DNA from: a virus
Virus record (IMG/VR): IMGVR_UViG_3300025280_000023
Location: 59,550 to 123,549 of that record
Length of the DNA: 64,000 nt
Direction: 5' to 3' (one strand)
The notes under the pieces were generated by a model. It was not told the DNA's origin, did no database searches, and was given only the letters and a program-made list of their open reading frames with translations. Position 1 is the stretch's first letter. Each line of letters begins with the position of its first letter. Of this stretch, positions 14,426-15,074 are shown piece after piece. A program made the position numbers and the translations under genes.

Positions 14426-14454
14426 TTGACAACTACCAAGCTATAATATAGAAT
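14426..14454 (+). promoter_or_regulatory. sigma70-type promoter of putative large ncRNA
   Basis: TTGACA-N17-TAGAAT. Confidence 0.75.
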
Positions 14455-14460
14455 ACCCTT

Positions 14461-15074
14461 GTTCTTTTAAAAAATGTTTAGAATTCCCCTTTTCGTCGGG
14501 GATTAAAATCAGCTTGCACAATCCGGGGCGGCTGGGTCTTCTTAATTGGAGGCATAGACGAGCGCCTAAGGAAGTAGATGCGTTGTTTCGTATTTCCCCT
14601 AGCGGGGCCTTTAAACAAGGCGGTGGATAGGAAAGTAGTGTTTCTGAAGCCACTTGTTAGCTTGACGACTAGAGTCGTGGTACTACCCGCGAAGTGCTGC
14701 CGTCAAGACAAACGGATTTGGACCGTTTATCGTTTGACCGGGTGTAACCAAGAAAGGTTACGGGAAGTTTTGCGTAAGCAAGCAAAGCGTCACTGTGTAT
14801 AACAGTAGTGCCAATGGTGAAAAGCGAAAGCTGATCACGTCACCCGCAAGGGCACGTTTGGATCCATCCCGTATGGTCAAAAACGTGAAGTTAGGTACGG
14901 GGATATAGCTATCCTACCAAGCCAAGCTTAGAATGTTATACACAATATAGGTGTGCTGTTGCATCACACAACAACAGGGGCAAAGGTGGTGAAGGATATT
15001 ACCCTTCCGTGTACAGACGCCACATCGGCGGTCACCACTATAGAGACGCTAACTGTGCTGGCGTCTCTTTTTTT
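14461..15074 (+). ncRNA. large (~610 nt) highly structured non-coding RNA, family unidentified
   Basis: Own promoter and terminator, no credible ORF, GNRA-capped hairpins, 11-bp long-range helix 14794-14804/14934-14944. Confidence 0.75.
15042..15074 (+). terminator. Rho-independent terminator
   Basis: AGAGACGCTA/TGGCGTCTCT stem followed by T-run. Confidence 0.85.

What the first reader, a model, noticed from the sequence alone, without database searches (positions are those of the whole stretch)
14426..15074. ~610-nt ornate non-coding RNA with its own promoter and terminator
Seen: TTGACA-N17-TAGAAT (14426-14454), then about 600 nt with no credible ORF in an otherwise densely coded genome, ending at a strong terminator (15042-15074). 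Helices read directly: TTGC-GTAA-GCAA (14770), AGC-GAAA-GCT (14823), CCC-GCAA-GGG (14843), GTAACC/GGTTAC, AAACGG/CCGTTT, ACGAC/GTCGT, CACGTTT/AAACGTG (14853/14881), GGTA..GGATA/TATCC-TACC, GGTGGTGA/TCACCACT, an 11-bp long-range helix TGTGTATAACA/TGTTATACACA (14794/14934), and possible pseudoknots CTTGACG/CGTCAAG (14661/14701) and CCCGTA/TACGGG (14868/14896). Known: phages carry large structured RNAs of this size class (ROOL, GOLLD) with unclear function. I see no RNase P, tmRNA or group I/II intron signatures. Inference: a divergent member of such a class or a new giant phage RNA (ribozyme, scaffold or decoy).
Basis: partly seen in the sequence, partly recalled or inferred. Interest (0 to 1): 0.9.

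Follow-up and report, generated by a model that had tools for sequence, protein, structure and literature searches.

The report
New large structured phage RNA gene
A marine phage carries a stand-alone gene for a roughly 615-base, intricately folded non-coding RNA that matches no described RNA family; a second phage keeps the same folds through matching paired mutations, but what the RNA does is still unknown.

Summary
Window 14461-15075 (+) lies between the best sigma70-type promoter of the region (11/12) and a 10-bp/U7 terminator. No ORF there looks coding. Rfam 15 gives nothing, even at E<=10.

The decisive result is one homologue, in a Tara scaffold of a related phage (L097 6762-7380; nhmmer E 6e-96, 71.5% identity). 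It sits in the same gene order. It has its own, non-alignable 12/12 promoter and an identical terminator.

RNAalifold on the pair gives 166 pairs in 32 helices. Of these, 41 changed on both sides and stayed paired, and none is broken. Column shuffles give 13.6 +/- 3.2. A fold made from the window alone is kept in L097 with 28 compensatory pairs, against 1-6 for slid partners.

Substitutions show no codon periodicity, unlike the neighbouring genes. The + strand is favoured.

No further member turned up in 81 IMG/VR records, about 160 other loci, two GTDB scans or INPHARED. There is no expression data and the function is unknown. This scan noted the same stretch once before, in an overlapping window of this genome.

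The parts
14426..14454 (+). sigma70-type promoter TTGACA-N17-TAGAAT; predicted start near 14461
   Evidence: 11/12, best in 13000-16500; 1 of 2 plus-strand matches >=11/12 in 123.5 kb. L097 has a 12/12 promoter (6696-6723) at a non-alignable place upstream of its copy.
14461..15075 (+). predicted ~615-nt non-coding RNA (ends inferred from promoter and terminator, not mapped)
   Evidence: Similarity to L097 begins at about 14460 and runs through the terminator. 166 consensus pairs, 41 compensatory, 0 broken.
14468..14474 (+). UAAAAAA, possible 5'/3' closing helix with the terminator U-tail 15069-15075 (H1)
   Evidence: Predicted by RNAalifold. Invariant in both copies, so neither supported nor refuted.
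14485..14553 (+). 5' hairpins H2 (14485-89/14498-502), H3 (14509-17/14528-35), H4 (14536-41/14548-53, invariant loop UUAAUU)
   Evidence: 2, 3 and 2 compensatory pairs, none broken.
14554..14575 (+). conserved, mostly unpaired stretch AUAGACGA....CCUAAGGAAGUA (Shine-Dalgarno-like)
   Evidence: Invariant blocks of 8 and 12 nt. The 74-aa ORF that starts after it is not conserved.
14576..14654 (+). hairpins H6-H10 (14576-95; 14596-606; 14607-21; 14622-26/14650-54 enclosing 14630-34/14641-45)
   Evidence: H6 has 1 and H10 has 3 compensatory pairs; H8 and H9 show wobble changes; none broken.
14661..14707 (+). three stacked helices H11-H13; H13 UCGUGG/CCGCGA with invariant loop UACUAC
   Evidence: H11 has 2 and H13 has 4 compensatory pairs. 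The competing single-sequence helix ACGAC/GUCGU is broken in L097 (helix 12).
14709..14781 (+). H14/H15 (14709-36), variable hairpin H17 (14747-58), H18 (14770-81)
   Evidence: H14 has 2 and H18 has 2 compensatory pairs. H17 is shortened by a 3-nt deletion in L097.
14759..14765 (+). candidate pseudoknot strand UACGGGA pairing with the H24 loop UCCCGUA (14867-14873)
   Evidence: 7 bp kept in both copies, 2 compensatory and 1 wobble change. Not significant alone: 95 of 200 shuffles give at least one such stem.
14794..14944 (+). central domain: 11-bp closing helix H19 (14794-804/14934-44) around four arms: H20/H21 (GAAA loop), H22 (GCAA), H23/H24, H25-H27. Invariant junction GUAGUGCCAAUG at 14805-16
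   Evidence: H19 has 4 compensatory and 3 wobble changes. Compensatory pairs: H20 4, H22 1, H23 3, H25 2, H27 2. The local MFE finds the same fold.
14952..15039 (+). 3' domain: H28 (invariant 22-mer hairpin, loop CAUCACACAA), H29 (14985-92/15032-39) enclosing H30 and the variable H31
   Evidence: 82% identity here against 63-70% elsewhere. H29 and H31 have 2 compensatory pairs each; H31 carries a 5-nt indel.
15042..15075 (+). intrinsic terminator, 10-bp stem, loop ACUGUGC, U7
   Evidence: Identical in L097 (7347-7380), loop included.

Best explanation
This is a stand-alone gene for a ~615-nt non-coding RNA of a family not in Rfam 15. So far it has two members, in two related uncultured marine phages.

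Shown:
- Both copies lie between a consensus sigma70-type promoter and the same strong intrinsic terminator.
- The sequence evolves under RNA-level selection, not protein-level selection.
- It folds into about 30 helices in three parts: a 5' region of hairpins and stacked helices (14485-14790); a central four-arm domain closed by an 11-bp long-range helix (14794-14944); and a more strongly conserved 3' domain (14952-15039) plus the terminator.

Inferred:
- Host RNA polymerase transcribes it from the start of infection.
- The terminator hairpin, and perhaps a 5' A-run/3' U-tail helix, make it stable.
- It acts in trans as a folded particle. The invariant junctions and the 3' domain would be the surface that binds a protein or nucleic-acid partner, or other copies of itself, as the ornate phage RNAs ROOL and GOLLD do.

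My rough split among trans roles is scaffold or binding particle > decoy for a host factor > ribozyme. None of these is tested.
For: Homologue and context:
- L097 6762-7550 matches with nhmmer E 6.4e-96, and blastn gives 71.5% identity over 659 nt.
- It sits in conserved gene order: the 311-, 737-, 84-, 129- and 67-aa genes upstream, and the 49/77-aa, 169-aa and 976-aa genes downstream.
- Similarity starts at the predicted transcript start. The promoters do not align, but each is near-consensus: 11/12 and 12/12.

Covariation:
- RNAalifold gives 166 pairs: 107 unchanged, 18 changed on one side, 41 changed on both sides, 0 broken.
- Its energy is -180.05, against -94.9 +/- 6.2 in 60 column shuffles. 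Compensatory pairs number 41, against 13.6 +/- 3.2 (maximum 22).
- A structure predicted from the window alone has 189 pairs. In L097, 98 are unchanged, 25 changed on one side, 28 changed on both sides, 35 are broken and 3 fall on gaps.
- For that structure, 28 compensatory pairs compare with 14.5 +/- 2.7 in shuffles (0 of 500 reach it) and 1-6 with slid partners. Cells paired are 90.7%, against 38.5-44.2%.
- The consensus plus the candidate pseudoknot has 43 compensatory pairs, against 3-6 when slid.

Strand:
- The minus-strand RNAalifold energy is only -129.6.
- The 3 GNRA hairpins are on + only.
- GC-adjusted folding z is -0.55 to -2.2 on + and +1.2 to -1.45 on -.

Not coding:
- Mismatches by position mod 3 are 68/59/52. 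The adjacent genes show 8/4/32 and 20/9/38.
- Indels are 1, 1, 1, 1, 1 and 5 nt in one row, and 1, 3 and 1 nt in the other.
- The longest stretch open in both copies is <=170 columns.
- The 74-aa ORF has no real relative among 1.84 billion representatives.
- Codon scores look like those of spurious ORFs.
Against: - There are only two sequences, so no R-scape-type statistic is possible. My column shuffles do not keep dinucleotide content or local context.
- No transcript evidence could be obtained.
- Against the rest of the genome the folding energy is only a moderate outlier: ranks 23 to 363 of 1234 windows of 200 nt.
- The RNA is absent from every more distant relative I could search, including L177, which keeps the two upstream genes. 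It is therefore dispensable for the wider lineage.
- Nothing points to a particular partner or chemistry. No target complementarity beyond chance was found in the phage.
- I found no recurring or sigma70-type promoter between the terminator and the downstream genes. A cis role cannot be excluded.
Confidence: 0.75

Rival explanations
1. It is a cis-acting leader. The promoter at 14426 drives the downstream + strand genes (15107 onward). The 600-nt structure with its terminator is then a giant attenuator or antitermination element that sets how much transcription reads through.
For: The RNA and the downstream genes are co-oriented in both phages. The 32 nt between terminator and ATG are conserved, but they match no sigma70-type promoter or recurring motif. 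The terminator is invariant, as a regulatory target might be.
Against: The terminator is a plain strong one (10 bp, U7), and I saw no conserved alternative pairing with its 5' strand. About 30 helices far exceed any leader I know of (recalled). In L097 the unit follows co-oriented genes and still has its own 12/12 promoter.
Confidence: 0.12
2. It is a divergent member of a described large RNA class (ROOL, GOLLD, OLE, HEARO, RNase P, a group I/II intron or tmRNA).
For: It is in the size class of ROOL and GOLLD and is phage-encoded. It carries several GNRA loops and long-range helices.
Against: Neither copy matches any of 4227 Rfam 15 models at the gathering score or at E<=10; the only hits are unrelated models at E>1. 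ARAGORN finds no tmRNA.
Confidence: 0.04
3. It encodes one or more small proteins. Candidates are the 74-aa ORF 14578-14802 behind the AAGGAAG motif, and the 48-aa ORF 14953-15099.
For: There is a Shine-Dalgarno-like AAGGAAG 6 nt before the ATG at 14578. A gene caller once predicted the 74-aa product (P0111).
Against: Neither ORF is kept in L097: a 1-nt indel and early stop break one, and a lost GTG plus a 5-nt indel break the other. There is no third-position bias. No real homologues were found. Codon scores are -0.10 and 0.135, against 0.25 +/- 0.08 for real genes.
Confidence: 0.03
4. It is a DNA-level element (an origin, a packaging site or a recombination hotspot) or simply slowly diverging spacer.
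For: It lies next to an insertion point: the 184-aa gene and two tail-fibre genes are present in the window and absent in L097.
Against: It has no iterons or AT-rich repeats. The strand-asymmetric G-U wobble changes and the 50 kcal/mol gap between strands only make sense for RNA. The flanking spacer upstream of the start cannot be aligned.
Confidence: 0.03

Closest known systems
ROOL RNA (rumen-originating, ornate, large)
   Same: It is a phage or prophage RNA of unknown function, with a highly complex predicted secondary structure including pseudoknots and no known protein partner (passages of 10.1101/2024.12.08.627333). Its length of roughly 600 nt is recalled, not from a call. The present RNA is also phage-borne, ~615 nt, has about 30 helices and probably a pseudoknot.
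   Different: No match to any Rfam model at E<=10, on either copy. ROOL is often near tRNA islands. Here the nearest tRNA in the window is 26.6 kb away. ROOL is widespread; only two copies of this RNA were found. ROOL forms an octameric cage; nothing is known here.
GOLLD RNA
   Same: It is a large ornate RNA of phages, including a marine metagenomic member. [quoted passage not shown] Here the 3' domain is 82% identical, against 63-70% for the rest.
   Different: GOLLD members often exceed 800 nt and lie near tRNAs. There is no Rfam match here. The helices are different. The 14-mer cage of GOLLD is untested here.
Phage 'moron' transcription units
   Same: It is a self-contained promoter-to-terminator unit set among unrelated genes, beside a variable tail-fibre module. 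The concept is recalled, not from a call.
   Different: Morons encode proteins. This unit encodes a structured RNA, and it is conserved in position between two phages.

Membership tests
ROOL / GOLLD / OLE / HEARO / raiA (large bacterial and phage ncRNA classes that I recall being in Rfam) | Match to the family covariance model at or near its gathering score | tested here: not met
   cmscan against all 4227 Rfam 15 models gave only 5 tRNAs in the window at gathering. At E<=10, window 14300-15200 gave 6 unrelated weak hits and L097 6650-7450 gave 2. None is a large-RNA family.
ROOL / GOLLD | Location beside phage tRNA islands (frequent, not obligatory) | tested here: not met
   The tRNAs in the window are at 41657, 49399, 50162, 63725 and 63820. 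The RNA ends at 15075.
ROOL / GOLLD | RNA-only homo-oligomeric nanocage with conserved intermolecular kissing loops | not testable with these tools
   By eye I saw no loop that stays palindromic between the two copies in the listing. Two sequences cannot settle this.
RNase P RNA, tmRNA, group I/II introns | Rfam model or ARAGORN match; for introns, flanking exons of a host gene | tested here: not met
   No Rfam hit and no tmRNA. The flanks are a promoter and a terminator, not an interrupted gene.
Structured non-coding RNA gene (generic) | Base pairs kept through compensatory changes above controls; strand specificity; no coding signature | tested here: met
   41 of 166 consensus pairs are compensatory, against 13.6 +/- 3.2 in shuffles. 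28 are compensatory against 1-6 slid, for the window-only fold. RNAalifold energy is -180 on + and -130 on -. Mismatch phase is 68/59/52.
Independent transcription unit | Own promoter and terminator, conserved as features in the homologue; a mapped transcript | tested here: inconclusive
   The promoter and terminator signals are present in both phages. No RNA data could be obtained.

The most novel reading that the evidence does not exclude
This would be a third, unrelated class of giant phage RNAs that works as an RNA-only machine. It would either self-assemble into a quaternary particle or cage, like ROOL and GOLLD, or be a new large ribozyme. It is made at once from a host-type promoter to act on a host or phage macromolecule.
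Probability: 0.15. Interest if true: 0.9.

Novelty: new variant of a known kind. Interest (0 to 1): 0.68.

Why it matters
By my recollection, only a handful of bacterial or phage non-coding RNA classes longer than 500 nt are known. Two of them, ROOL and GOLLD, were recently shown to build RNA-only nanocages of unknown purpose (abstract and passages of 10.1101/2024.12.08.627333).

An independent ~615-nt class with a well-defined domain structure adds a new subject for that open question. It has a clean transcription unit and a homologue at a useful distance. The unit is small enough to transcribe in vitro and examine by chemical probing, mass photometry and cryo-EM without knowing the host. It also shows that uncultured marine large phages carry such RNAs outside tRNA islands.

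Tried and rejected
Searches for close variants:
- Logan runs: 14 marine DNA runs hold the stretch and no RNA holder is listed.
- Contigs of 4 runs laid on 14100-15400 were identical where they covered it, so they gave no variation to use.
- The 5 members of the 282-aa neighbour's cluster are identical.

Searches for more family members, all empty:
- blastn 'distant' of both copies against INPHARED, and tblastn of the 976-aa protein there.
- nhmmer and blastn of the RNA against 80 IMG/VR loci gave only chance matches of <=25 nt.
- An nhmmer profile against all 171 loci held found only L097.
- The single-sequence model R1 found 0 of 50 IMG/VR records. R3 found 0 of 31 records, and 19 metagenome records were 'not held' and not searched. 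R2 and R3 on 82 sources found only the two copies.
- Exact or gapped patterns: five in viral contigs. One search gave one chance hit in a coding region, dismissed. Searches gave none. Two in genome contigs gave none.
- Protein anchors: the 282-aa protein in IMG/VR gave none. The tail fibre shares only its S74 domain with anything. The 67-aa anchor found L177, which has no RNA.
- ORF-free gaps in relatives share only tRNA-sized matches, and none matches this gap.
- The complete relative G003 lacks the block that holds the RNA.

Other dead ends:
- Earlier findings of the scan showed no look-alike in other genomes.
- The PDB gave nothing for the 311-aa protein or for the A1 profile.
- A target search for complements of the invariant blocks in the phage found only chance-level 8-10-mers.
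- Papers: four full-text searches listed nothing describing this RNA. I read only passages of one paper. Supplements were not opened.

Rejected ideas:
- An 11-nt GAAA receptor made of CCUAAG and UAUGG: the UAUGG is not conserved.
- A CsrA-type GGA sponge: by eye, the motif is not enriched.
- An antiterminator formed by the ACAGACGCC repeat: it is not kept in L097.

Full report
WHAT IS THERE

The window is bases 59550-123549 of a 123,549-bp IMG/VR virus record that CheckV rates 68% complete. The record is densely coded: only 8 gaps exceed 250 nt when ORFs of >=60 aa count as genes.

Two tail-fibre genes with Peptidase_S74 domains end at 14150 on the minus strand. A run of + strand genes starts at 15107. 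Between them lies about 1.1 kb without a credible gene.

Inside that gap, TTGACA-N17-TAGAAT (14426-14454) is the best sigma70-type match of the region, at 11/12. It is one of only two plus-strand matches of that quality in the whole record. A terminator follows at 15042-15075, with a 10-bp stem, a 7-nt loop and U7. G+C is 0.45-0.49 inside, against 0.32-0.37 in the flanks.

NOT A KNOWN RNA AND NOT A GENE FOR A PROTEIN

Rfam 15 (4227 models) finds only five tRNAs in the window at gathering. At E<=10 it finds only unrelated weak hits in 14300-15200. ARAGORN finds no tmRNA.

The longest ORFs are 74 aa on + and 70 aa on -. Their codon-usage scores are -0.10 and -0.07. That matches spurious nested ORFs (-0.08 +/- 0.12, n=362), not the 49 long genes (0.25 +/- 0.08).

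An exhaustive phmmer of the 74-aa product against 1.84 billion representatives returned three hits. One is the product itself. The other two are repetitive proteins matched in 11 and 5 stretches.

SINGLE-SEQUENCE SIGNS OF STRUCTURE ARE MODERATE

- The + strand MFE is -203.1 kcal/mol (z -3.2). The minus strand gives -189.6 (z -4.0). Each used only 20 shuffles.
- Against all 1234 native 200-nt windows of the genome, after regression on G+C, the six windows over the RNA have z -0.55 to -2.2 on + (ranks 23 to 363). On - they have z +1.2 to -1.45.
- Three hairpins are capped by GNRA loops on +, and none on -. Only 14 of 2459 windows of equal length have three or more on the + strand.

THE HOMOLOGUE

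Close variants do not exist in what I could reach. Contigs from four marine runs are identical, and the neighbour's protein cluster is invariant.

The 976-aa protein downstream (17646-20576) does have relatives. I aligned nine of them (A1). The 80 IMG/VR loci that A1 retrieved showed no trace of the RNA.

Gene order is shared. Upstream are homologues of the 311-aa nucleotidyltransferase-like protein (67%), the 737-aa protein (33%), the 84-aa protein (76%), the 129-aa NUDIX protein (62%; Pfam) and the 67-aa protein (79%). Then comes the RNA. Downstream are a small basic protein (54%), the 169-aa protein (41%) and the 976-aa protein (47%).

The window additionally carries a 184-aa gene and the two fibre genes between the 67-aa gene and the RNA. 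These are an insertion relative to L097.

WHAT THE COMPARISON SHOWS

1. Transcription signals. Similarity begins at about 14460, the predicted start, and the sequence upstream is not alignable. L097 nevertheless has a perfect TTGACA-N16-TATAAT at 6696-6723, about 35 nt further upstream than in the window. The terminator is identical, loop included. The promoter-RNA-terminator layout is therefore conserved as a feature.

2. Substitution pattern. The 179 mismatches fall 68/59/52 by position mod 3. The two neighbouring genes show 8/4/32 and 20/9/38. Indels are 1, 1, 1, 1, 1 and 5 nt in one row, and 1, 3 and 1 nt in the other. No ORF is kept: the longest stretch open in both copies spans <=170 columns and crosses frame-shifting indels.

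3. Consensus fold. RNAalifold on the pair (A5) gives 166 pairs in 32 helices. Of these, 107 are unchanged, 18 changed on one side, 41 changed on both sides with pairing kept, and 0 are broken. Fifteen helices carry two or more compensatory pairs.

4. Controls. RNAalifold selects consistent pairs, so I ran three controls.
   - Sixty alignments with columns shuffled within the identical, different and gapped classes gave energy -94.9 +/- 6.2 (minimum -108.3), against -180.05 observed. They gave 13.6 +/- 3.2 compensatory pairs (maximum 22), against 41.
   - The reverse-complement alignment gave -129.6 and 35. G-U wobbles therefore support the + strand.
   - A structure predicted from the window alone, blind to L097, has 189 pairs. 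In L097, 98 are unchanged, 25 changed on one side, 28 changed on both sides, 35 are broken and 3 fall on gaps.
   - The count of structure pairs on that structure gives 28 compensatory pairs, against 14.5 +/- 2.7 in shuffles (0 of 500) and 1-6 for partners slid by 1-3 columns. Cells paired are 90.7%, against 38.5-44.2%.
   - The helices that break are the ones the two-sequence fold replaces.

ARCHITECTURE

- The 5' part holds hairpins H2-H4. A conserved unpaired stretch, AUAGACGA...CCUAAGGAAGUA, follows. Then come H6-H10, a stack H11-H13 whose inner hairpin has the invariant loop UACUAC, and H14-H18.
- The central domain is closed by H19, where 11 of 11 pairs are kept through 4 compensatory and 3 wobble changes. 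It has an invariant 12-nt junction, GUAGUGCCAAUG, and four arms. One arm carries a GAAA loop above a 2x2 purine internal loop. Another carries a loop that stays GNRA (GCAA to GAAA) while its closing pair changes C-G to U-A.
- The 3' domain is 82% identical, against 63-70% elsewhere. It contains an invariant 22-nt hairpin with loop CAUCACACAA.
- A candidate pseudoknot joins 14759-14765 to the loop of H24 (14867-14873). It has 7 bp, 2 compensatory changes and 1 wobble change. On its own it is not significant, because 95 of 200 shuffles yield at least one such stem. The set of four stems of >=7 bp does exceed every shuffle, whose maximum is 3.

HOW FAR THE FAMILY REACHES

I found no third member.
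- Models of the central and 3' domains built from both copies (R3, R2) hit only the two copies among 82 sources.
- They hit nothing in 31 further IMG/VR records. The single-sequence model R1 hit nothing in 50 records, five of them >=90% complete.
- Exact or gapped patterns from invariant blocks found nothing real in IMG/VR or in the GTDB species genomes.
- L177 keeps the 84- and 67-aa genes, but tightly packed genes follow them.
- The complete relative G003 lacks the block that holds the RNA.
- INPHARED holds neither the RNA nor the 976-aa protein. The lineage is therefore uncultured.

WHAT IT LIKELY DOES

Shown: it is an RNA-level selected, strand-specific, multi-domain fold, flanked in both phages by host-type transcription signals.

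Inferred: it is transcribed early by host polymerase, accumulates as a stable RNA, and acts in trans as a folded particle. The unusually constrained 3' domain, the terminator loop and the invariant junctions would then be contact surfaces.

The closest analogues in kind are ROOL and GOLLD. These are phage RNAs of unknown function that form RNA-only cages (passages of 10.1101/2024.12.08.627333). GOLLD also has a more conserved 3' region. Membership in either is not supported, and this RNA is not beside tRNAs.

The main rival is a cis-acting leader for the genes from 15107 on. I found no recognisable promoter in the conserved 32-nt spacer. The plain strong terminator, the lack of a conserved alternative pairing and the sheer size argue against that reading.

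No complementarity to the phage genome beyond chance was found.

LIMITS

- There are two sequences only, and no RNA data.
- The transcript ends are inferred, not mapped.

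Noticed in passing
window 10211-14150, compared with L097 6680-6760: A 184-aa gene and two tail-fibre genes (minus strand, Peptidase_S74) lie between the 67-aa gene and the RNA in the window. They are absent in L097, where the RNA follows the 67-aa gene directly. 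This looks like a host-range module inserted next to the RNA gene.
   Followed up: partly
window 15107-15256, compared with L097 7413-7646: The small basic protein right after the terminator is 49 aa in the window and 77 aa in L097. L097 keeps a C-terminal ...NLGCYNSKEGAEKREQQVNFFKH tail that the window copy lacks in every frame. There is no Pfam family. The 32-nt spacer before its ATG is strongly conserved.
   Followed up: partly
window 9618-10007: The 129-aa protein two genes upstream of the RNA in the ancestral order is a NUDIX hydrolase (PF00293, E 9.6e-11). The 311-aa protein at 6062-6997 has a borderline NTP_transf_2 hit. Both are RNA- or nucleotide-modifying candidates in the same conserved block.
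   Followed up: no
window 15744-16592 and 17646-20576: The 282-aa ORFan and the 976-aa protein family start with the same motif: MKLILESWRRYL in the first, and consensus MKLxLENWRxF in the second. This may be a shared N-terminal signal. The 976-aa family has 224 tblastn-confirmed stretches in IMG/VR and 464 in metagenomes, but no Pfam, PHROG or PDB match.
   Followed up: no
window 10652-10950, 31752-31950, 33152-33550, 36552-36750: These 200-nt windows are the strongest G+C-adjusted folding outliers of the whole record on both strands (z -3.4 to -4.3), stronger than the RNA studied here. Two coincide with other first-reader notes on small structured RNAs.
   Followed up: no
L097 6736-6759: L097's copy has an extra 5-bp hairpin, GCUCC-UAAC-GGAGC, followed by AAAUGUUUUU. 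It lies between its promoter and the start of the conserved RNA, so its transcript would be about 35 nt longer at the 5' end, or the hairpin ends the upstream operon.
   Followed up: no
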